From Escherichia coli (lineage in GTDB: Bacteria; Pseudomonadota; Gammaproteobacteria; Enterobacterales; Enterobacteriaceae), in NCBI RefSeq assembly GCF_024298765.1, contig NZ_CP101210.1: a stretch of 64,000 nt of DNA; one strand, 5' to 3'. The stretch's first letter is position 1. Each line of letters starts with the position of its first letter. This document shows positions 1-10,376 of the stretch, piece by piece. The position numbers were made by a program, and so were the translations under genes. The notes below the pieces were generated by a model. It saw nothing but the letters and a program-made list of their open reading frames with translations. It did not search any database and was not told the DNA's origin.

Positions 1-88
1 AGTTTTGGTACAACAAGTCTAGCCAGTTTACTAAAGTTCAACCTATGCCTCAGCTTAGTAATTCCACAAGGCTCATTGACGAAATAAT

Positions 89-1534
89 ATGTCAAATAGG
101 TGTGCTTCTATGAATGAGCCAGCTAATCGTACAGTAAATAATTTGAGAAAGAGCGGAGACCTGCAAGGGGCTTGGGAGTTTGGTTTTCAAGCGTTGCAGG
201 CAGCTCCCCAAGATACTTACTTGAAAGGTGCTTTATTTTGGGTGTGTTATGAGTTTCTTAAGCACCAGCTTGAAAATCTAAATAAGCGAGCGAGTTCTTC
301 AAACAACTATCGTCCTACTGATTTTGAATTTGAGCAAATAGAGAACTTGCTGCAAACCATAGTAAATTTAGATATTGCTACTGGCGGCCTAGAGTACAAA
401 ATGCTGCTGGTTCAGTTTAAGAAGAGTTTGGAATGGTTTCCAACCTTGATTCACCTTGTGCTTCGACATCAAACTGTACTATTTGATGATGAGGCTAAAA
501 CACCTTTTCAAGCTGAAAAAGGTGAAGTGCCAAGTTTGATGCTCTCAACAGCACGCCAAGTGGCGAGTGCATGGCTTAGAGCACGAGAGTATTGGCATCT
601 AGATCTTAACCAAGTGATGGCATTTATTAACCAAACACGCGAGCAAGCCTCTGACACTAAACATATGATGTGGCTTGATTACGACCAAGCGAAGTGCCTT
701 GTTGTTGCGGGCCAATACGATCAGGCTCGCGAACTCATTCTACCCATTTTAAGAAAGAAGCAAAAAGAGTCTTGGGCTTGGGGAGCGTTGGCTGCTACTT
801 ATTCAAAACAAGATCAGCGTTTAGCAATGAAGTTTTTTGCTAGGGGAATAGTATCCGCACATGACGTTACTTTTAGTTTACGTTTATTACAGGGAATTAT
901 TCCTTTATTACTTGCAAATCAACAGCAAGCTGAAGCCTCAATGTGCCTAAAAACGGCTATTGCGGCTTATCAAGCCCATGGGTGGAAGCTAAAGCAAGAG
1001 CTAGAACAGCTATCTATGCAGGCTTGGTATGATTCTGGTGTCGATGAGAAGCAACTGAGTCCTTTTTTAAACTCTATTTCTCACGACGCTTTAAATTACT
1101 TGCATGGGCCGATGGAGAAGGTTGTTGCTATCGTAGAGAATATCCATAAATCCGGTAAAGGCTTTCAAGTATTCGTAAATAAGTCGACATCACTATCAGT
1201 TCGCATGGGGGTTCATAAAGGTAAGCAGAAACCTCAGGCTGGTGACTATGTCGAGCTATCCGTAGCGAGTGTTGATGGAAACAAAGAAGTAGTAGCTTCC
1301 TCATCGTCCAAGCAAGTAGATATGGCTGATGTTTCGTATGTAGAGGGTACGCTTCGAATAGCACCCAAAGGCTTCGGATTTGTCGAGGATACTTTTGTTC
1401 CTCCCTTTGTTATAGGTAATTTAAAAAATGAAACAAAAGTCAGAGCACTCCGTATCATGAGTTGGGACAAATCTAAAGCTCGCCACAACTGGAAAGCGAT
1501 TAAGTTAACGGAACTAAATTTTAATGAAGACTAA
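89..1534 (+). CDS. hypothetical protein, 481 aa, with C-terminal cold-shock/OB-fold-like segment
   Basis: Long ORF with RBS-compatible context. C-terminal segment contains a KGFGFV motif resembling the cold-shock domain KGFGFI signature, preceded by a second beta-rich segment. No enzymatic motif recognised. Confidence 0.5.
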   Translation: MSNRCASMNEPANRTVNNLRKSGDLQGAWEFGFQALQAAPQDTYLKGALFWVCYEFLKHQLENLNKRASSSNNYRPTDFEFEQIENLLQTIVNLDIATGGLEYKMLLVQFKKSLEWFPTLIHLVLRHQTVLFDDEAKTPFQAEKGEVPSLMLSTARQVASAWLRAREYWHLDLNQVMAFINQTREQASDTKHMMWLDYDQAKCLVVAGQYDQARELILPILRKKQKESWAWGALAATYSKQDQRLAMKFFARGIVSAHDVTFSLRLLQGIIPLLLANQQQAEASMCLKTAIAAYQAHGWKLKQELEQLSMQAWYDSGVDEKQLSPFLNSISHDALNYLHGPMEKVVAIVENIHKSGKGFQVFVNKSTSLSVRMGVHKGKQKPQAGDYVELSVASVDGNKEVVASSSSKQVDMADVSYVEGTLRIAPKGFGFVEDTFVPPFVIGNLKNETKVRALRIMSWDKSKARHNWKAIKLTELNFNED

Positions 1535-1591
1535 GTCACTTTCCGGCGAAATCGAGTTAGGACAGGCTCAAGAATTAGCCGAGGTCGAATA

Positions 1592-1688
1592 ATGGCAACC
1601 CGAGTAGAAATGATTATCGAAACGCTCAAGGCGAACCCCGACAAGAAGTTTACTGCTCGGGACTTAGCCAAAGAATTTGTGCTTCGAT
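1592..1688 (+). pseudogene. 5' fragment of an ORF (MATRVEMIIETLKANPDKKFTARDLAKEFV...) truncated by the IS903 insertion
   Basis: ATG at 1592 preceded by GAGG, 58 bp after the stop of the 481-aa ORF. Reading frame runs directly into the IS903 left inverted repeat at 1689. No continuation recognisable after the IS. Confidence 0.4.
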
Positions 1689-2745
1689 GGCTTTGTTGAA
1701 TAAATCGAACTTTTGCTGAGTTGAAGGATCAGATCACGCATCTTCCCGACAACGCAGACCGTTCCGTGGCAAAGCAAAAGTTCAAAATCACCAACTGGCC
1801 CACCTACAATAAAGCCCTCATCAACCGTGGCTCCATAACTTTCTGGCTGGATGATGAAGCTATTCAGGCCTGGTATGAGTCAGCAACACCTTCTTCACGA
1901 GGCAGACCTCAGCGCTATTCTGACCTTGCCATCACGACTGTGCTGGTCATTAAACGCGTATTCAGGCTGACCCTGCGCGCTGCGCAGGGCTTTATTGATT
2001 CCATTTTTTCTCTGATGAACGTTCCGCTACGCTGCCCGGATTACAGCTGTGTCAGCAGGCGGGCAAAGTCGGTTAATGTCAGTTTCAAAACGCCCACCCG
2101 GGGTGAAATCGCACATCTGGTGATTGATTCCACCGGGCTGAAGGTCTTCGGTGAAGGCGAGTGGAAAGTCAAAAAGCATGGCCAGGAACGCCGCCGTATC
2201 TGGCGTAAGCTGCATCTCGCCGTTGACAGTAAAACACATGAAATCATCTGTGCAGACCTGTCGCTGAACAACGTTACGGACTCAGAGGCCTTCCCCGGGT
2301 TAATCCGGCAAACCCACCGGAAAATCAGGTCAGCCGCCGCCGATGGCGCTTACGATACCCGGCTATGTCACGATGAACTGCGGCGTAAGAAAATCAGCGC
2401 GCTTATCCCTCCCCGAAAAGGTGCGGGTTACTGGCCCGGTGAATATGCAGACCGTAACCGTGCAGTGGCTAATCAGCGAATGACCGGGAGTAATGCGCGG
2501 TGGAAATGGACAACAGATTACAACCGTCGCTCGATAGCGGAAACGGCGATGTACCGGGTAAAACAGCTGTTCGGGGGGGCACTGACGCTGCGTGACTACG
2601 ATGGTCAGGTTGCGGAGGCTATGGCCCTGGTACGAGCGCTGAACAAAATGACGAAAGCAGGTATACCTGAAAGCGTGCGTATTGCCTGAAAACACAACCC
2701 GCTACGGGGGAGACTTACCCGAAATCTGATTTATTCAACAAAGCC
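1689..2745 (+). mobile_element. IS903 (IS5 family), complete 1057-bp element
   Basis: Terminal inverted repeats GGCTTTGTTGAATAAATC at 1689 and its reverse complement ending at 2745. Internal transposase ORF. No 9-bp target duplication in flanks (TGCTTCGAT vs GTTGCCAAA), suggesting an adjacent deletion. Confidence 0.9.
1721..2689 (+). CDS. IS903 transposase
   Basis: Translation (MKDQITHLPDNADRSVAKQKFKITNWPTYNKALINRGS...) is the IS903/IS5-family DDE transposase as recalled. Confidence 0.9.
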   Translation: MKDQITHLPDNADRSVAKQKFKITNWPTYNKALINRGSITFWLDDEAIQAWYESATPSSRGRPQRYSDLAITTVLVIKRVFRLTLRAAQGFIDSIFSLMNVPLRCPDYSCVSRRAKSVNVSFKTPTRGEIAHLVIDSTGLKVFGEGEWKVKKHGQERRRIWRKLHLAVDSKTHEIICADLSLNNVTDSEAFPGLIRQTHRKIRSAAADGAYDTRLCHDELRRKKISALIPPRKGAGYWPGEYADRNRAVANQRMTGSNARWKWTTDYNRRSIAETAMYRVKQLFGGALTLRDYDGQVAEAMALVRALNKMTKAGIPESVRIA

Positions 2746-3282
2746 GTTGCCAAACCTGAAATAACACTTAGCTGTGATGATTCGCTATTACCTACCGATG
2801 GCTTCGGAAAACATAAATTAAAAATGCCCAGAGGAGTACTATTATCGTTAGCATTACCCGAACGCCGTATTAACGGTTATTTATTGGTAAGAGCTACGTT
2901 CCATGGCAAGAGTTCATCAACAGGTTGGAAGGCCATTCCGGCAAAACTCTCAGTATATGGCGCAGATACCATTCAGACAGCAGGTCCCGCTCAGCCCGTA
3001 CAGTAGAGCGCCGTTCACTACCGTAATCGCTACCGAAGAACACATTGATTGCCCCTCAATAATCCTGCTGTTAACATCAAAATTGTTGGTCGGGCTCGAT
3101 TTATTTAATTGTGTAAACAGGGTCTCTCAGAGAAAGGCCCTTATGCATCACCTGACGTTAAAAGTCACTACACCCAAGATGACGTTCAAAGTGTCATAGT
3201 CCCCTGCGCTGAGGACAAAGCCACACGTTAACGACAAATCCACGCGATAACTTACGATAGTTCGGACATAAGCCCCCATAAT

Positions 3283-3846
3283 TCAGTTATGTCGTGGTCG
3301 GCCGCGGTTACTTTTTTCGGGAAGCCTGCTACGGCCCAGAATAATACCGTGTTCTTTCTGATCTTGTTTAGCCAGATAGCTAAGGGCGTAACGTAAGTCG
3401 TCTACCGCAGACTTATCACTATAGTGAATCACGTGATCGATACGCACCGGGTATTTATCTTTAGCCCGGCACAGGTGAAAATAACCCTCCCCTTCCGTGA
3501 TCCGCCTCCAGATATCCCCCAGTTGCCTGGATATCTGATAAGAGTTCTTGTGACGTTGCCCATCCAGATAGCCGATAAAATGAATATGAAGCCCTTTGTC
3601 TGGTGTATATTCCATAACCCAGTAATATCCTGCCAACATCGTCTGGGTTTCGCTAAGTAAACGGTATATTTCCATACACATACTGTGCTTACAGGAATGC
3701 CCGAAACTGGGCGTGTCTTTCCTGTAGGCAAAATCAATTCTGAAAGGTAACAGTTTAGAAAAACGTTGAAACAATCCCTCCATGTGTTCATTCACATCTT
3801 TCAGAATCGCGAAATTCATTTCGTAATTGGGATTGGCATTATACAT
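3283..3846 (-). CDS. YagK/YfjJ-family (inovirus Gp2-like) prophage protein
   Basis: 187-aa ORF whose sequence resembles the YagK/YfjJ family found in CP4-type cryptic prophages. Sits in the same order as in CP4-57 (alpA, yfjI, yfjJ). Confidence 0.5.
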   Translation of the reverse strand: MYNANPNYEMNFAILKDVNEHMEGLFQRFSKLLPFRIDFAYRKDTPSFGHSCKHSMCMEIYRLLSETQTMLAGYYWVMEYTPDKGLHIHFIGYLDGQRHKNSYQISRQLGDIWRRITEGEGYFHLCRAKDKYPVRIDHVIHYSDKSAVDDLRYALSYLAKQDQKEHGIILGRSRLPEKSNRGRPRHN

Positions 3847-4735
3847 TTTATAGTCCTTACTTTATAAAATTCACAGGAAGAGGGAATTACGTAAATACTG
3901 AGAGTACATAAACGCCGTACCACGGCATTAATAAACGAGGTAACCAGCAGTACAGACAACCTGATAAAACTGTTTTGTATTACCGCATCGCTGTAACAAG
4001 GTAATACTTCAGAATTCAGTGAGGCTCTCTTAAACAGAGGACCAGTAATAATTACAATGGCAAAAACACACCTCAATATAATTGAATTTAAGAAAGCACC
4101 ATTCAATCACTTACAGGAAGTAATCTGATCTTCACAAAAGTCAGCTATCGAATAGCCACAGGCAACACCGCTATTGATACCCCACACACCATAAGAAGAT
4201 TATTCCATACAGAAAAAATTATATTTACCCATACTTATAAACTGTAACGGAGCTATGACGTACGAACTAAAGACACTACACTCTAATAGAGTTCTGGTAC
4301 CTAACCAGTGTTAAATACGAACCAGACATACATTCTATGGATTAATTTTCTCAATATTACGCTATGAGTGTAGTAACATAATTTACACCACATACACCAC
4401 CACACTGTAGTTAGTATATGGGGAGACATTACGATAAAAAGAGATAAGTTATACCACAGATACCACCACACAATACCATAACTCCCATTAATAATACTAA
4501 TTAACCTAAATTATTTATTGAATACGAAAACAATGAAGGTCCCACCTCACCTCAGACTAAAGCCGACAATATCCTGAGCAACACTCTATCCAATAGTAAA
4601 TAGTGGTTACACCAGTTATATTTACTGACTGACCTGTACCAGAGTTTTCTAATACAACAACGCTGACATGGTAAAGGCATTAGTCTCCTCCGCAAGTAGC
4701 AGAGGAGACTATATGTTACTCAACGATTAAGTCGT

Positions 4736-6187
4736 TCAGAGGTCAAAGTTAGGTGCGACACACAACGTTTTTCCCTCAATAACCGGTACAACTCTGTTTT
4801 GTTCATACAGTAAATCCAGTAACCAGTTGATTTTATCCTTTTTCCGGAAACGGTTCGGACCACGCTGTAAAATATCATTTTTTTTCATACAGGGGATCCC
4901 CTTCTCAATGCAATAGCTTTTTATCCAGTTGAAAAGTTCAAGCTCCTCTGGAATGAGTCGCACAGGTACGGTCAGGGCAGGGTTGTCAAAAGTTAACGGA
5001 TTAGACAACCGCACATACTCATTACCGTACCATATTGCTAATTCTCTCGCCATTTCTGCAGTGTAAGGGGAAATGTCCCCCTCTTCACCGCTCGAATGGT
5101 GAATAAGTCCTGCCAGTCTTGCCATATACTCTGCATTTTTAGCAGCATATTCCCGGCAATGTCTTAAAGGCCCCAATCCCCCCAGCTTCGATTCCACATC
5201 GTTGTAATAATCCGTCCAGATTCTGGCAGCCTGAGGAGAAAAGTGAAGGCAACGTCGTTCACCACTCATCGCCAGATTTTCATCAATAAGCTCATTGATC
5301 CTCTGTTCAAACAAATCCTGATACTGTGATGAATAATTATCTCCGGTTATTATCCTTGTCCCCTGCGTTGATGTTGGTTGACACATCAAAAACCTTGCAT
5401 GATGTCCTGACGTTTTCACAAGTTCTTTTTTTCGCGTACAAAAACCTTTCTGGTAAACATCAGGCTGAATCATCACCGATACCGTCAGTCTTGGATCCTT
5501 CAAAATAATTCCGGGAGATGATTTCCTGTCGATGAAAAGAGAACCACCATCCCACAAAGAGTTAAGTATTCCAAGTTTACTCATTGCCCGGCCATCAAAA
5601 ATTATTCCTCCTTCACTGGATACAAGAGCAAAAGAGCGATTGCTGTCGGAATAATATTTTAACATTCCCTCTATCGTTGTCTCATTGAAAATTGTCCGGC
5701 GTATCTGCGGCGGAACAGGACATTTATTCAGATGTCTTTTAAGCTCTGACTCTGTTGCCTTACAATCTTTACCGGCGCGAATTTCTTTATGCAATTTTGA
5801 CTCCAGTGCTTTTTGCTTTTGCTCCCATATTTCCTTTTCTGTACTGTAATTCTCAACCAGTTTCGCGTATTCTTCCGCCAGGGCTTCATCCCTGAGATAA
5901 AATGCTTTCATAAACACTTTATCCACGGTCGTTTTCCTTTCACCGGAATCAGCCAGAATCAGAGAGTAAAGATTAACAGGCCCACGTAAATTTCCAGGTC
6001 TGCACACGTCAATCTGATTCTGACAGGCACTTGAGAACGCTGTTAATGCGGATGTCGCCACCATAGCCAAAGGTGCCTGTGTATTTTTTTGAGTTTCAAT
6101 TATTGCATTTCTCACCAGCGGTGGTAGTGCATATACCGGATAAGGATTTTCTGGTGCAAGTAAGCACATAAAAGCCTCTCTTTTCAT
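4736..6187 (-). CDS. YfjI-like prophage protein
   Basis: 483-aa ORF immediately downstream of an AlpA-family gene in the canonical CP4-57-like order. Family assignment is by position and size recall only. Confidence 0.45.
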   Translation of the reverse strand: MKREAFMCLLAPENPYPVYALPPLVRNAIIETQKNTQAPLAMVATSALTAFSSACQNQIDVCRPGNLRGPVNLYSLILADSGERKTTVDKVFMKAFYLRDEALAEEYAKLVENYSTEKEIWEQKQKALESKLHKEIRAGKDCKATESELKRHLNKCPVPPQIRRTIFNETTIEGMLKYYSDSNRSFALVSSEGGIIFDGRAMSKLGILNSLWDGGSLFIDRKSSPGIILKDPRLTVSVMIQPDVYQKGFCTRKKELVKTSGHHARFLMCQPTSTQGTRIITGDNYSSQYQDLFEQRINELIDENLAMSGERRCLHFSPQAARIWTDYYNDVESKLGGLGPLRHCREYAAKNAEYMARLAGLIHHSSGEEGDISPYTAEMARELAIWYGNEYVRLSNPLTFDNPALTVPVRLIPEELELFNWIKSYCIEKGIPCMKKNDILQRGPNRFRKKDKINWLLDLLYEQNRVVPVIEGKTLCVAPNFDL

Positions 6188-6417
6188 TAATGGGTTAGTA
6201 AAGCAGCAGCAACTCCCGCTATAATAGCGAAATAGCTGCTGTTCAGACCTAATGTTCTGAGAAATACAGAATATCTGTAGATCTGATGTTTAATAAACCG
6301 ATAAGGTTAATTCAGTTCATACTGTGTTATTTACCACGAAATATCATTCATGTTTCTCATTCTTAACACCTCCTAAAATTATTTCACTAACACCTTCCCC
6401 CCGGTCTTTTTCCTTTC

Positions 6418-6645
6418 TCAGGAATCAGCCAGAACCATAGTGTAAATATTAACAGGCCCACGTAAATTTCCAGGTCTGCACACGTCAATCTGATTCTGAC
6501 AGGCAATTGACATCGCTGTTAATAATGATGTGGTAGTCATAGCCAGAGATGCTTTTTCATTGTGTTGAGTTTCAATTATTGCATTTCCAGTCATTGATGG
6601 TTGCGCATATACTGGATACGGAGTATCCGGTTTGATGTAAGACAT
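6418..6645 (-). pseudogene. truncated duplicate of the 5' end of the YfjI-like gene
   Basis: 75-aa ORF whose sequence (PYPVYA...NAIIETQ...ACQNQIDVCRPGNLRGPVN...LADS) parallels residues 14-82 of the 483-aa ORF. DNA 6400-6650 is about 80 percent identical to 5935-6190. Confidence 0.6.
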
Positions 6646-6750
6646 AAATATTTCCTTTTTTCGTAATAACTTTCGGTTATAGCAGCTATTTCCGCTACAA
6701 TAGCAACAATAGCTGCTATACAGACTGGATATACTGAAAATACAGACAGT

Positions 6751-6999
6751 TCATCTGGTCTGTATCCAGCAAAGAAGGTCACTTAACAACCATCCGCAAG
6801 ATTTCTTTCCGATAGACTTACGTGGTGGAAATTTTCCCTCCCGTTCAAGTTTCCACGCTTGTGTACGAGAAATTGACGTGATCTCATATCGTTCCTTTTC
6901 ACGTACCAGTCTGTCGCATTCAATCCCATAAGCTTTCAAAATGACCAGACGCTGTTCATCTGTTAATGGAAGCCACATACTACCCTCCTGATATATCAA
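6751..6999 (-). CDS. alpA: AlpA-family phage transcriptional regulator
   Basis: Small ORF with AlpA-like HTH segment (ITSISRTQAWKLEREGKFPPRKSIGKKSCGWLLSDLLCWIQTR). True start probably the internal Met (MWLPL). Confidence 0.6.
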   Translation of the reverse strand: MIYQEGSMWLPLTDEQRLVILKAYGIECDRLVREKERYEITSISRTQAWKLEREGKFPPRKSIGKKSCGWLLSDLLCWIQTR

Positions 7000-7669
7000 T
7001 ACTTTTTATTTCCGGCATGAGCATGAAATGACTAAGTTTCCCGGATAAACAATGAGTGAAAGTCACTATCATTCATCCAGTCAACGCCTTGCAAATAAAA
7101 TGTAATACTATGATTTTTATAGGTCAAAATACTAAATTACAATGTTAAAATGGCTTTTAACAGAAAAAATAAAGACATATGGAACCAAATAAAAACAAGC
7201 CACGACCAATAAAAACAAAAGATTAATATTAAAAATCCATTATGACGATTTTTGTTGACTAAAATTAGGTTGGGATATATAAATAAATCCATGTAAAATT
7301 CAAACAAGGCATAGAGGAGCCGCAGGAAGGTGAAATATTTCCATCTAATTTGTGATAATCATCACAAAAATAAGCTACAACAAGCGGAGGAAAAGACAAT
7401 CTGTTGCTGAACAGACAGAAGCAGGCTACGAATGATCGGAAAATGAAGCAAATACGCTTATACAGAAGACGCAGAGGTAACTGACGGAGACAATCACAAT
7501 CAGGAGAAAATTATCGTAAATAATGTATAAAATCTCAGGATATAAACAAATGTACACAAGCTATCCACGTAATCAGCGGCTGGCTCAGGATTGACGTTTC
7601 ATTTCAGTGGACAACATCGATTCTGTCTGACAGCGGACCAATATGTAGCAAGCAGAAACTTCTGACATC

Positions 7670-9307
7670 ATGGTAACTCGGACAATGCAACAAAAGTATC
7701 AGTATGATCGTGTTTTATCCGGCGAACTCCACCCATTCCCTGGCATATACGAGGCGGTTTCCGAACAAATCCTTTTGCTCATTTTTAAAGCACGTCAACT
7801 ATATCAGGATCCAGAATATCGCCCCTGGTTTGAAGAACAGCACAGAGTACTCTCTGCATTACGTGCCAATACAGAGCTCCTGAGAATCTTTAGAGAACAA
7901 AGAAGCGCTGAAGAACCAAAGCTTACTATTGAAGAGTCTACCTCCCCCCAACCCACTCCTTCTGCTCTTACAGATGCGCTTAATGTGATGTGCCATTTAT
8001 ACAATGGTTTTGATGAAGGAAATATCAGTCTGAAAACCTGGGGGGCGATGCAAGAGGTACAGACAACATCAACCTTTATCAGCCCAGGACCGAGAACCTG
8101 GAAAACACCTGAACTGGCAAAGTTTGTAGGAGATGATTTATTTAATATTCTGACTGAATGTAAGGCCTGGAGTTCACCAATTCCAGCAGAAACCCGACAG
8201 GGGTATTGCCATCAGGATCTGTCTGTTGCACACTCCTGCACCTCAGAGTTACTGGCACACCTGAATCAATATCATGAAATTGATGAATCAGCAATACTTG
8301 CCAGAGTTATTGGTATAACAGTTAACGGATTCTACAAGAAAAATAATACAGACCTTCCAGAATGGCTATCCCCCTTTAAAGAGGAACATAAAATATTCAA
8401 AGATTGTCCGGAGCAAAATACCGGGGATGTAATCAGACGGAAAGAACAACTGTTGAAAACAGGACGTACAGAATTCGTGAATAATTTGTGTCGGGTCGCC
8501 AACTGGTATGAAATTGAGTCAATATACGATGAATACGTCCGTCTTTATGCCAATGAAATCATTGACTGGTTCAACAAAACCATGAAGTATTTTAAACCAA
8601 CAGATTTTATCCGATATACATGGAAATTCGCAACAGTTACTCCGGATAAAGATACAGAAACCGGGCATACAACTGCATGGGAAAAGGATTATTGCCAGAT
8701 AACCATACAACGTGATGAACTTCTGAGGTTGATTCACACTAATACCCTTCAGGATGCTGTAATTTATCTTTGTCATTGTCTGCAGGAGAAATACAAGAAA
8801 TCATCCCAGAATGAGACAGAGTTTCCAGGAATAAAACCTCCGGCATCAGAGAGTGAAATTAATATAACAGATAATTTTGAATTTCATTCTCTTCTGGAGC
8901 TAAGTAAAGATAATGAGAAGCGGCTGGAAACATTTCAAAAATGGTATGAAAAAAATAAAGTTTTGTTAGAAAGTCATAAACAAAAACGAACAGAGAAGAT
9001 TGACGTTGCCGTACGACTTGTAGGGCTGAAAGCCTATGATCTGCATGAAGGGATTCCGGATAGTCCAAAACGAAAAGTTAAAGATGGCATAAATGAAGAC
9101 ATCAAAGCCGATACCAGTTTACGCCTGTCAAAGACAAATATAAGTGATACGTCGCTAAACCGTTATCGCCGCACTGTTAAGGAGATTATCAATAACGAAA
9201 TCGACGCATTCCTGTTGGAACAGAAGAAAAAAAATAAAAGATTTCCCTACAGTGAAGATAGAGATGTGATTCGCCCTTTATGGGGAAAATGCCTGACCGG
9301 GCAGTAG
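7670..9307 (+). CDS. hypothetical protein, 545 aa, AT-rich, no recognisable motif
   Basis: Long uninterrupted ORF in AT-rich DNA preceded by about 650 bp of AT-rich non-coding sequence. No Walker, HTH or catalytic motif recognised. Confidence 0.5.
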   Translation: MVTRTMQQKYQYDRVLSGELHPFPGIYEAVSEQILLLIFKARQLYQDPEYRPWFEEQHRVLSALRANTELLRIFREQRSAEEPKLTIEESTSPQPTPSALTDALNVMCHLYNGFDEGNISLKTWGAMQEVQTTSTFISPGPRTWKTPELAKFVGDDLFNILTECKAWSSPIPAETRQGYCHQDLSVAHSCTSELLAHLNQYHEIDESAILARVIGITVNGFYKKNNTDLPEWLSPFKEEHKIFKDCPEQNTGDVIRRKEQLLKTGRTEFVNNLCRVANWYEIESIYDEYVRLYANEIIDWFNKTMKYFKPTDFIRYTWKFATVTPDKDTETGHTTAWEKDYCQITIQRDELLRLIHTNTLQDAVIYLCHCLQEKYKKSSQNETEFPGIKPPASESEINITDNFEFHSLLELSKDNEKRLETFQKWYEKNKVLLESHKQKRTEKIDVAVRLVGLKAYDLHEGIPDSPKRKVKDGINEDIKADTSLRLSKTNISDTSLNRYRRTVKEIINNEIDAFLLEQKKKNKRFPYSEDRDVIRPLWGKCLTGQ

Positions 9308-9393
9308 ATCACAGATGGGATAACATCCCGGTTATCCCCTGTTTGTTCTGCTTCAGGTTGCCGGAGCTCCAGGAACACGAGGCAATCGGCAAA

Positions 9394-9990
9394 TTATGCG
9401 GCTTTTCCATTAACAGATTCGGCCACAAGAACAACACCGTGTTTGTTTCGATCAGGATGTTCACTCCAGATTTCTGATTCAGGAATACTTTCCCCATCAT
9501 AGCAGATCCGATCACCATCAAACGAATAATACCGTGCGGAATCTGTATCTAAGATAAACACCTTAAAATTCGTTGAACGACGCGCTATATGCTGCCAGAG
9601 GGCTTTACCTCCTTCATATTGCTCGTTATCACTTAATAGTATAACGCCTGCTTTTGTGGCTATTGTTTCATAAACAAACGTAGCAAGGCTAACATCACGT
9701 ACAGCGCCATCGACAACAATCCCTTCAATCTGAGCAACGTCCTGTTCTTCCCAGAATTTCCGGACAAACACCCCTTCAAGCTGTGAACGACGCTGAAGCT
9801 CCAGAGTGGCAACAACCTTATGGCGAATATCACCATCAATAACAGAAGGTGCAGCTTCGATTACCGCAGCGAACGGAGTCTTTGGATCCCAGATGATCTG
9901 GTAAAGCACACCCTGAATAGTTACTCCATCCAGTATCGAAAAACGACGAGCTACAGTAGCAGGGGAGTAAGACATTGGAATGACAGCCAT
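9394..9990 (-). CDS. hypothetical protein, 198 aa
   Basis: ORF convergent with the 545-aa gene, located between it and thrW where an island integrase would be expected. No family recognised. Confidence 0.45.
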   Translation of the reverse strand: MAVIPMSYSPATVARRFSILDGVTIQGVLYQIIWDPKTPFAAVIEAAPSVIDGDIRHKVVATLELQRRSQLEGVFVRKFWEEQDVAQIEGIVVDGAVRDVSLATFVYETIATKAGVILLSDNEQYEGGKALWQHIARRSTNFKVFILDTDSARYYSFDGDRICYDGESIPESEIWSEHPDRNKHGVVLVAESVNGKAA

Positions 9991-10300
9991 TTTATGGCCT
10001 AAAATTTGAAAACATCAGTATCAATACTGACCTCATCAGTCTGAGCATATATTGATAAAGTTTTTATGTTTACACTCAATAAATACCTTGCCAAACAACT
10101 AATAGCGATGTCTACATTGCCATTCGACATGCTTACAATTTTTGTCAACAAGAAAGTGAATTTATATCAACGGTAAGAAGTAAACACGAGGACACCAAAA
10201 CCAAATGTACACACTTTTGTGCTTTGTGTCCCCTGTGTGTACCCAAATGACAAACTGCAAGAAAATCTAGGCACACACTTATCTAACTTATTGATTTAAA

Positions 10301-10376
10301 TGGTGCCGATAATAGGAGTCGAACCTACGACCTTCGCATTACGAATGCGCTGCTCTACCAACTGAGCTATATCGGC
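10301..10376 (-). tRNA. thrW: tRNA-Thr (anticodon CGT)
   Basis: Reverse complement reads GCCGATATAGCTCAGTTGGTAGAGCAGCGCATTCGTAATGCG...TTCGACTCCTATTATCGGCACCA: cloverleaf with CGT anticodon and encoded CCA. Position next to proA matches thrW. Confidence 0.95.

What the first reader, a model, noticed from the sequence alone, without database searches (positions are those of the whole stretch)
7670..9990. Two unknown cargo genes occupy the integrase-proximal position next to thrW
In tRNA-associated islands the integrase normally abuts the tRNA 3' end. Here the 3' side of thrW has no integrase. Instead there is a convergent pair of unknown genes (545 aa and 198 aa) in AT-rich DNA, followed by the AlpA / YfjI-like / YagK-like backbone. 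The pair could be an effector or defence cargo that replaced or accompanies a lost integrase. Neither protein has a motif I can recognise.
Basis: inference. Interest (0 to 1): 0.5.

Follow-up and report, generated by a model that had tools for sequence, protein, structure and literature searches.

The report
Two orphan cargo genes beside thrW
Next to the thrW tRNA gene of this E. coli lies the integrase-less end of a CP4-57-type genomic island, which carries an acetyltransferase-fold gene shared with P1-like phage-plasmids and a 545-residue orphan gene found in phage, plasmid and island cargo slots; neither function is known, and a published phage-defence test of the larger gene was negative.

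Summary
A 545-aa ORF (7670-9307, +) and a 198-aa ORF (9394-9990, -) converge in AT-rich DNA between thrW and an AlpA/YfjI/Gp2 backbone, and no integrase is present.

In 432 of 5,426 complete E. coli genomes the same block reads int-198-545-alpA-yfjI at a non-tRNA site beside nfeF, so the genes accompany an integrase and do not replace one. The thrW copy (278 genomes) is an integrase-less derivative.

The two genes do not look like an obligate pair.
- **545-aa protein:** it belongs to a closed family of 37 clusters in Gammaproteobacteria. It is all-alpha, with no sequence or fold relative. Distant members sit in a P2-like prophage S-V slot, an IncF plasmid, an ICE and a Vibrio island, usually beside a small acidic protein and never beside the GNAT.

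DefensePredictor (Science 2026) flagged the 545-aa gene as a novel defence gene. It gave no protection against 24 phages. The finding is of moderate interest and the function is unresolved.

The parts
7670..9307 (+). 545-aa orphan protein (63.8 kDa, pI 6.1, soluble, all-alpha). It is transcribed divergently from alpA.
   Evidence: ORF. RefSeq WP_039025855.1, hypothetical. No Pfam, PADLOC, PHROG, NCBIfam or PDB hit. Family of 37 clusters only. AF2 model pLDDT 78, pTM 0.81. No fold relative. dN/dS 0.27-0.63.
9394..9990 (-). 198-aa GNAT-fold (acyl-CoA N-acyltransferase-like) protein. It is the full-length relative of the P1 pmgF-locus gene. In intact islands it lies directly downstream of int, on the same strand.
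9317..9338 (.). 8-bp-stem hairpin (GGGATAAC...GTTATCCC) in the 86-bp gap between the convergent genes; a possible shared terminator.
   Evidence: Pattern scan only; sequence.
7000..7669 (.). 670-bp, 34.6% GC intergenic region between the divergent alpA and 545 genes. It holds no conserved ORF, and its central part (7059-7583) is not alignable with other alleles.
   Evidence: No Rfam match. The number of promoter-like sites is no higher than in shuffled sequence.
9991..10300 (.). 310-bp, 33.9% GC spacer between the 198 gene and thrW. It is specific to the integrase-less thrW configuration.
   Evidence: At least 98% identical in 278 genomes and never annotated. No similarity to the int-198 interval of int-bearing copies. 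No integrase remnant.
10301..10317 (.). Island boundary and att core: the last 17 nt of thrW (TGGTGCCGATAATAGGA).
   Evidence: Homology with strain 200164 runs through these 17 nt. There, a degenerate copy (TGGTGC-GATAATAGGA) is followed by a different island. It is the only copy in the window.
10301..10376 (-). thrW, tRNA-Thr(CGT).
   Evidence: ARAGORN; Rfam tRNA, 71.8 bits.
6751..6999 (-). AlpA-family HTH regulator, first gene of the backbone operon.
   Evidence: PF05930, E 1.7e-13.
6418..6645 (-). 75-aa duplicate of the YfjI N-terminus (DUF3987 pseudogene fragment).
   Evidence: RefSeq pseudogene annotation.
4736..6187 (-). YfjI-family DUF3987 protein.
   Evidence: PF13148, E 1.5e-85.
3283..3846 (-). 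Inovirus-type Gp2 / YagK-YfjJ family protein.
   Evidence: RefSeq annotation of the identical gene. No Pfam hit at E<=1e-3.

Best explanation
The segment 7000-10317 is the integrase-proximal arm of a CP4-57-type integrative island (int - X - alpA - yfjI - yfjJ/gp2). At thrW the island exists only in an integrase-less, immobilised form.

Shown:
- In intact copies the order is att - int> - 198> - <545 - alpA> - yfjI> - gp2>.
- The thrW copy keeps everything except int, and has an unrelated 310-bp spacer in its place.

Inferred: the two genes are separate single-gene accessory modules and not one system.
1. The 198-aa protein is an acyl-CoA-dependent N-acyltransferase of the GNAT fold. It modifies an unknown protein or small molecule. 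In intact islands it is probably expressed with int. P1-like phage-plasmids carry the same gene in their rlfA-rlfB-pmgF variable region.
2. The 545-aa protein is a soluble, multi-domain, all-helical protein that travels as self-contained cargo between mobile elements. I take it to be, most likely (about 0.4), a stand-alone conflict protein of the phage-exclusion or defence type. On that reading its alleles diversify and are swapped by recombination, and it works without the GNAT.
For: Architecture:
- int-198-545-alpA is seen beside nfeF in O121:H19, CP8-3, four IMG/VR contigs, E. albertii and a Salmonella contig.
- 432 genomes carry int+198 contiguously, and 278 carry the int-less thrW spacer.
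- K-12 CP4-57 has the same plan, with yfjH as the opposite-strand gene between intA and alpA.

Independence of the two genes:
- All 9 distant-clade (33-43% identity) 545-family loci checked for the 198-aa protein lack it; five more distant-clade loci were not checked for it.
- Those loci lie in a Klebsiella P2-like prophage between gpS and gpV, a Vibrio int-alpA island, a prophage accessory region, an ICE, near mnmE and on an IncF plasmid.
- The 198 family occurs alone in P1-like phage-plasmids, after a different integrase next to an Ntox44 gene, and at rsmI, glyQ and ECF-sigma chromosomal loci.

GNAT assignment.

Mosaicism: across E. coli loci int is 98-100% identical, the 198 protein 92-100% and the 545 protein 57-100%. 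In three of five comparisons dS of the 545 gene is 2.9- to 39-fold that of the 198 gene in the same locus.

Conflict reading:
- The gene occupies cargo slots of several kinds of element.
- The P2 S-V (orf30) site is a known replaceable site (PMC6823313).
- The P1 rlfA-rlfB-pmgF region is one of eight variable regions and pmgF is non-essential (PMC9603915, PMC10695390).
- DefensePredictor gave the 545 gene a log-odds of 5.06.
Against: - In the sampled islands carrying this integrase, the slot holds the same two families. That looks like a fixed part of the island and not a free-turnover hotspot, so a joint or island-internal role is not excluded.
- The only experiment was negative. The F11 allele (99% identical) on pCV1 in MG1655 protected against none of 24 phages.
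- No catalytic or effector domain was found in the 545-aa protein.
- How the thrW form arose (deletion or recombination between islands) is not resolved.
Confidence: 0.55

Rival explanations
1. The 545-aa protein is the island's own immunity or regulatory protein, analogous to SaPI Stl. It would repress the divergent alpA-yfjI-gp2 operon and sense a helper phage, with allele-specific operators in the variable intergenic region.
For: - It is the only opposite-strand gene and is divergent from alpA across 670 bp of AT-rich DNA.
- Its alleles are 57-100% identical while the flanks are 92-100% identical, and the central intergenic DNA is not alignable between alleles.
- It is present in every island copy sampled.
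Against: - Homologues sit where there is no alpA operon to regulate: the P2 late region, an IS-rich part of an IncF plasmid, an ICE tra region and the mnmE locus.
- In the Vibrio island a different 385-aa protein lies next to alpA and the 540-aa gene is one slot away (the HTH-like C-terminus of that protein is my reading of the sequence).
- No operator-like repeat array is present.
- No DNA-binding Pfam domain is found.
Confidence: 0.15
2. The two genes form one two-component system in E. coli. The GNAT would modify or restrain the 545-aa protein (or its trigger), taking the place that the acidic ~140-aa partner holds in other lineages.
For: - The two genes are strictly adjacent in every E. 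coli-type locus examined, over 57-100% divergence of the 545 gene.
- The E. coli clade lacks the acidic partner that accompanies most distant-clade members.
- The 545 gene tested alone was inactive.
Against: - The genes are convergent and do not form an operon.
- Their evolutionary histories differ (dS).
- The 198 gene tracks int, not the 545 gene: int+198 are contiguous in 432 genomes, and a 198-family gene follows an unrelated integrase with an Ntox44 neighbour.
- The 198 family occurs alone in phage-plasmids and at chromosomal loci.
Confidence: 0.12
3. The 545-aa protein is the toxin of a toxin-antitoxin or addiction module that stabilises mobile elements, with the acidic small protein as antitoxin.
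For: A small acidic protein (pI 4.05) is encoded divergently next to the 540-aa gene in 9 of 12 distant-clade loci checked, across unrelated elements.
Against: - E. coli-clade genes are intact and under purifying selection without that partner.
- The partner is divergent and not co-transcribed.
- The gene was clonable alone on a plasmid in MG1655.
- There is no match to any known toxin family.
Confidence: 0.07
4. The 198-aa protein is a phage morphogenetic protein, as the P1 name PmgF suggests, and the island uses it to exploit a P1-like helper.
For: - Its N-terminal 66 residues are 44.6% identical to P1 PmgF.
- Full-length homologues lie at the end of the P1-like tail and baseplate gene block.
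Against: - pmgF is non-essential in P1 by CRISPRi (PMC10695390).
- It lies in a variable region that is often deleted or replaced (PMC6906374, PMC9603915).
- The fold is enzymatic, a GNAT.
- Relatives are ordinary chromosomal genes in Buttiauxella, Cedecea and Erwinia.
Confidence: 0.04

Closest known systems
E. coli K-12 cryptic prophage CP4-57 (ssrA | intA - yfjH - alpA - yfjI - yfjJ - abpBA)
   Same: It has the same backbone order and orientation, with an opposite-strand gene of unknown function between int and alpA and defence cargo distal to yfjJ.
   Different: YfjH (318 aa) is not homologous to the 545-aa protein. CP4-57 has no GNAT gene after int and keeps its integrase. The window's island sits at thrW and has no integrase.
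P1 PmgF and variable region 5 (rlfA-rlfB-pmgF) of P1-like phage-plasmids
   Same: RCS47, SJ46 and more than 120 P1-like plasmids carry an 87%-identical 198-aa gene exactly at the pmgF position. P1 PmgF matches residues 4-66.
   Different: P1 PmgF is only 98 aa and looks like a truncated allele lacking the GNAT core. The island copy lies next to an integrase, not a tail operon.
GNAT acetyltransferases (ESCO1, HAT1, NatD; toxins AtaT/TacT)
   Same: The predicted fold matches, and the beta4-alpha3 RxxGxA pyrophosphate-binding motif is present.
   Different: Sequence similarity is below Pfam thresholds. The N-terminal arm and an insertion at about residues 150-185 with invariant Y164 and W175 are family-specific. 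There is no adjacent DUF1778 antitoxin, so it is not a GNAT-RHH toxin-antitoxin module.
[quoted passage not shown] 2022, PMC9122126) and the P2 orf30 slot between S and V (PMC6823313)
   Same: 545-family genes occupy a small replaceable slot between conserved genes of mobile elements, including the S-V slot of a Klebsiella P2-like prophage.
   Different: The published defence hotspots are gpA-gpQ in P2 and psu-int in P4, not S-V. In the sampled E. coli islands the int-alpA slot holds the same two families instead of turning over. No psu, sid or delta genes are annotated here.
DefensePredictor candidate 'GBPR' (WP_000258743.1; PMC13092281, Table S6)
   Same: It is the same gene, the F11-type allele, 99% identical.
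   Different: It was predicted to be a novel defence gene (log-odds 5.06) but scored defensive = FALSE against 24 phages, cloned alone with its native upstream region.

Membership tests
CP4-57-type (P4-integrase/AlpA/YfjI/YfjJ) integrative island | Tyrosine integrase next to the attachment site | tested here: not met
   There is no integrase between thrW and the pair, or within 20 kb, in this configuration. It is present in sister copies beside nfeF.
CP4-57-type (P4-integrase/AlpA/YfjI/YfjJ) integrative island | alpA - DUF3987 (yfjI) - yfjJ/yagK gene order on one strand | tested here: met
   PF05930 E 1.7e-13; PF13148 E 1.5e-85; Gp2/YagK by RefSeq annotation. The order is the same as in K-12 CP4-57.
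CP4-57-type (P4-integrase/AlpA/YfjI/YfjJ) integrative island | Boundary at the 3' end of a tRNA or tmRNA gene, with an att repeat | tested here: met
   Homology ends within the last 17 nt of thrW. A degenerate repeat separates tandem islands in strain 200164. The distal repeat was not found in the window.
GNAT (GCN5-related N-acetyltransferase) superfamily | GNAT alpha/beta fold | tested here: met
   [not shown]
GNAT (GCN5-related N-acetyltransferase) superfamily | Motif A, Q/R-x-x-G-x-G/A, after strand beta4 | tested here: met
   R98-D-V-S-L-A103, with G at position 101 in most homologues. It aligns to RGKGLA of an arylalkylamine N-acetyltransferase.
GNAT (GCN5-related N-acetyltransferase) superfamily | Significant match to a curated GNAT sequence model | tested here: not met
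   This protein has no Pfam or NCBIfam hit. Of 65 family members, 4 hit Acetyltransf_1 weakly (best E 6e-4).
GNAT (GCN5-related N-acetyltransferase) superfamily | Acyl-CoA binding and transferase activity | not testable with these tools
   Needs biochemistry.
GNAT-RHH type II toxin-antitoxin (TacT/AtaT with a DUF1778 antitoxin) | Adjacent co-transcribed DUF1778/RHH antitoxin gene | tested here: not met
   The neighbours are the 545 gene (convergent) and the spacer or int.
P1 PmgF family (phrog_7522 / phrog_7349) | Sequence homology and the same locus in P1-like genomes | tested here: met
   phrog_7522 E 4e-125 over its full length. 87% identical genes lie between bplB and repL in RCS47. P1 PmgF matches residues 4-66 at 44.6% identity.
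Known or candidate anti-phage defence systems (PADLOC-DB 2.0) | Match to a defence-protein HMM | tested here: not met
   No hit for either protein, for five other 545-family members, or for the acidic partner. The one exception is a single E 0.007 noise hit to HEC-01B for P0034.
Known or candidate anti-phage defence systems (PADLOC-DB 2.0) | Experimental protection against phage | not testable with these tools
   Published test of the 545 gene alone: defensive = FALSE against 24 phages in MG1655 (PMC13092281, Table S6). The pair and the 198 gene alone have not been tested.
HEPN RNases (considered for the 545-aa protein) | Rx4-6H motif | tested here: met
   R176-Q-G-Y-C-H181, with R176, G178, Y179 and H181 invariant in 36 sequences. 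A short motif alone is weak evidence.
HEPN RNases (considered for the 545-aa protein) | HEPN four-helix fold, or a match to a HEPN family model | tested here: not met
   [not shown]
P4-like satellite | psu, sid, delta and alpha-primase genes | tested here: not met
   None is annotated in the island in two complete genomes.

The most novel reading that the evidence does not exclude
The 545-aa family is a new kind of stand-alone conflict protein, for phage exclusion or competition between mobile elements. It would have a fold not represented in the PDB, and would be partnered in most lineages by a small, highly acidic protein that could be a DNA mimic or a regulator. It spreads between P2-like prophages, plasmids, ICEs and int-alpA islands. 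In E. coli islands its alleles would be exchanged like immunity specificities. The negative 24-phage test would then reflect a missing trigger, poor expression or a missing partner.
Probability: 0.2. Interest if true: 0.6.

Novelty: new member of a known kind. Interest (0 to 1): 0.35.

Why it matters
- **Island biology:** the 'missing integrase' at thrW is a decayed copy of a widespread island and not a new way of building islands. It also defines the intact form, int-GNAT-545-alpA, present in about 8% of complete E. coli genomes.
- **The 198-aa gene:** the gene at the P1 pmgF locus, long labelled 'putative morphogenetic', gets a fold assignment as a GNAT acyltransferase. That makes it testable as an enzyme.
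- **The 545-aa gene:** this is a compact orphan family that moves among at least six kinds of mobile-element slot, and a defence predictor has already singled it out. The comparative context given here (acidic partner, allele mosaicism, constant GNAT neighbour in E. coli) suggests which constructs to try after the published negative test.

Tried and rejected
- **Sequence searches for the 545-aa protein found nothing.** These covered Pfam, PADLOC, PHROGs, NCBIfam, PDB sequences with a single query and with a profile, and tblastn against 50,697 phage records. A profile search did not enlarge the family beyond 37 clusters.
- **YfjH.** The CP4-57 gene in the same position is not homologous.
- **Acidic partner in E. 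coli.** A remnant was looked for in the E. coli loci and none was found.
- **Spacer and intergenic DNA.** There is no integrase remnant in the 310-bp spacer. There are no operator-like repeats and no known RNA family in the intergenic DNA. Promoter-like sites are no more frequent than in shuffled sequence.
- **Literature searches.** Searching papers by RefSeq accession found nothing in main texts. The DefensePredictor supplement was the only hit.
Full report
**Observation.** The window is E. coli chromosome (frsA-crl-phoE-proBA-thrW). tRNA-Thr(CGT) thrW lies at 10301-10376 on the minus strand, so foreign DNA lies to its left. Their GC content is 40.5% and 44.9%. The flanking non-coding stretches are 34-35% GC, and the core genes to the right are 52%. 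To the left come AlpA (PF05930), a 75-aa DUF3987 fragment, YfjI (DUF3987, E 1.5e-85) and an inovirus-type Gp2/YagK protein. RefSeq annotates both ORFs as hypothetical proteins in identical loci.

No integrase is annotated within 20 kb on the island side in strains 13P460A and F11. The 310-bp spacer next to thrW has no integrase remnant.

**What the segment is.** Related E. coli loci show the intact arrangement. In O121:H19 16-9255 and in CP8-3 the order is integrase(-) | 198-aa(-) | 545-like(+) | alpA(-) | backbone, beside nfeF. The same order appears in four IMG/VR contigs, in E. albertii and in a Salmonella contig. No tRNA gene is present at those sites.

Counts in 5,426 complete E. coli genomes:
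- 698 carry the 198-aa gene.
- 432 of these carry int and the 198-aa gene contiguously.
- 278 carry the thrW-type 310-bp spacer, which is at least 98% identical and never annotated.

Homology between the window and the int-bearing copies stops exactly at the start codon of the 198-aa gene. On the other side, homology with strain 200164 runs through the last 17 nt of thrW. There, a degenerate copy of those 17 nt is followed by a different island. The island therefore ends at the thrW att core, and the thrW form is an integrase-less derivative. K-12 CP4-57 has the same plan, intA - yfjH(opposite strand) - alpA - yfjI - yfjJ, but YfjH is unrelated to the 545-aa protein. So the pair does not replace an integrase. 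In intact copies it sits between int and alpA.

**The 198-aa protein.**
- *Sequence relatives.* It matches phrog_7522 over its full length (E 4e-125). It is 87% identical to a gene of the P1-like phage-plasmids RCS47 and SJ46 that sits exactly where P1 has pmgF, between bplB and the rlf/repL region. About 124 plasmid records carry that allele. P1 PmgF (98 aa) matches only residues 4-66 and looks like a truncated allele.
- *Literature.* pmgF is non-essential in P1 (PMC10695390). rlfA-rlfB-pmgF is one of eight variable regions of P1-like elements and is often deleted or replaced (PMC9603915, PMC6906374).
- *Family size.* An exhaustive profile search finds 352 representatives at E<=0.001.
- *Contexts.* The family occurs alone after an unrelated integrase next to an Ntox44 gene. 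It also occurs at conserved chromosomal loci: next to rsmI/lpoA in Buttiauxella and Cedecea, next to glyQ in Erwinia, and next to an ECF sigma/anti-sigma pair.

I conclude that it is a stand-alone GNAT-fold acyltransferase of unknown substrate. It is not a morphogenetic protein. It has no DUF1778 neighbour, so it is not a GNAT toxin.

**The 545-aa protein.**
- *No known relatives.* No library recognises it. Its family is closed at 37 clusters of about 540-aa proteins from E. coli, Serratia, Dickeya, Klebsiella, Pectobacterium, Proteus, Aeromonas and Vibrio, even with a profile query.

Comparative context is the most informative evidence. Members 57-100% identical to the query always lie alpA<- ->545 <-198 (<-int). 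Members at 33-43% identity never have the GNAT in the nine loci checked for it. In 9 of 12 of those loci checked for it they are preceded by a divergent, very acidic protein of about 140 aa (pI 4.05). Those distant members lie in:
- a Klebsiella P2-like prophage between gpS and gpV, the orf30 site known to be replaceable (PMC6823313);
- a Vibrio int-...-alpA-RepA island beside guaA;
- a prophage accessory region with umuC, SRAP and a colicin;
- a Proteus ICE between traC and traU;
- a site next to mnmE;
- an IS-rich stretch of a Citrobacter IncF plasmid near AbiE.

Only the 540-aa gene is constant across these loci, which points to a self-contained cargo gene.

**Evolution within E. coli.** Across loci, int is 98-100% identical, the 198-aa protein 92-100%, AlpA 78-100%, and the 545-aa protein only 57-100%. 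dN/dS for the 545 gene is 0.27-0.63, so selection is purifying but weaker than on its neighbours. In three of five comparisons its dS is 2.9- to 39-fold that of the adjacent 198 gene, so old alleles have been recombined into a young frame. The central part of the alpA-545 intergenic DNA is not alignable between some alleles.

**Published experiment.** DefensePredictor (PMC13092281) lists WP_000258743.1, the F11 allele (99% identical), as transcription unit 'GBPR'. Its log-odds is 5.06, it has no HHblits homology to defence proteins, and its category is 'predicted novel defense gene'. It was cloned alone on pCV1 (no vector promoter) in MG1655 and scored defensive = FALSE against 24 phages. The authors note that negatives may reflect the phage panel, expression or system boundaries. 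The 198-aa gene's accessions were not found in the held, partly truncated, supplements.

**Interpretation.** The best-supported account (0.55) is that this is the integrase-proximal arm of a CP4-57-type island that has lost or never received its integrase at thrW, and that it carries two independent accessory genes. For the 545-aa protein I favour a stand-alone conflict or exclusion role (about 0.4), based on its distribution across cargo slots, its acidic partner, its allele mosaicism and the machine-learning prediction. The negative test and the absence of any effector domain weigh against this.

The main rivals are:
- an island regulator or immunity protein divergent from alpA (0.15); this fits the position and allele pattern, but not the P2, plasmid and ICE contexts;
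- a genuine GNAT+545 two-component system in E. coli (0.12); this fits the strict adjacency, but not the convergent orientation, the differing histories or the linkage of the 198 gene to int.

Toxin-antitoxin and morphogenetic readings are unlikely.

**Verdict.** The island type is known. The 198-aa gene is a new, divergent member of the GNAT fold, shared with P1-like elements. The 545-aa gene is an uncharacterised orphan family that has already been flagged, and tested without success, as a defence candidate. Interest is moderate (0.35).

Noticed in passing
window 89-1534 (+): A 481-aa protein with DUF7017 and the S1/CSD-like domain 2 of TOTE conflict systems. In the identical RefSeq locus an ATP-dependent DNA helicase precedes it, and IS1 and IS903B bracket the pair. 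This looks like distal island cargo from a TOTE conflict system. Sister islands instead carry a TOTE archaeo-eukaryotic primase protein after Gp2.
   Followed up: partly
window 6418-6645 (-): A 75-aa ORF duplicates the N-terminus of YfjI (a DUF3987 pseudogene fragment) between alpA and the full-length yfjI. It is present in several but not all alleles of the island.
   Followed up: no
L003 4995-5291 (phage P1 pmgF); L002 6001-6597 (RCS47): P1 PmgF (98 aa) aligns only to the N-terminal third of the ~200-aa GNAT-fold family. It appears to be a truncated allele of the full-length gene carried by RCS47, SJ46 and many P1-like plasmids.
   Followed up: partly
L007 7225-7662 (-); L010 7245-7658 (-); L048 5200-5649 (-): A conserved, extremely acidic protein of about 140 aa (46 of 145 residues are D or E; pI 4.05), with no match in Pfam, PHROGs or PADLOC, is encoded divergently beside the 540-aa gene. 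It is seen in Klebsiella and other prophages, a Vibrio island and probably a Citrobacter IncF plasmid. It could be a partner, a regulator or a DNA mimic.
   Followed up: partly
window 1721-2689 (+) and about 2900-3200: An IS903B transposase and a transposase remnant separate the Gp2 gene from the distal cargo. IS1 and IS5 copies lie further out in the complete genome. The island is heavily rearranged by IS elements.
   Followed up: no
L046 (E. coli EC93 'plasmid' pCP127): A 127-kb plasmid record carries the whole chromosomal stretch pepD-gpt-frsA-crl-phoE-proBA-thrW plus this island, with ISEc39 inserted between the 545 and 198 genes. This looks like an F-prime-like capture of the region.
   Followed up: no
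[not shown]
   Followed up: no
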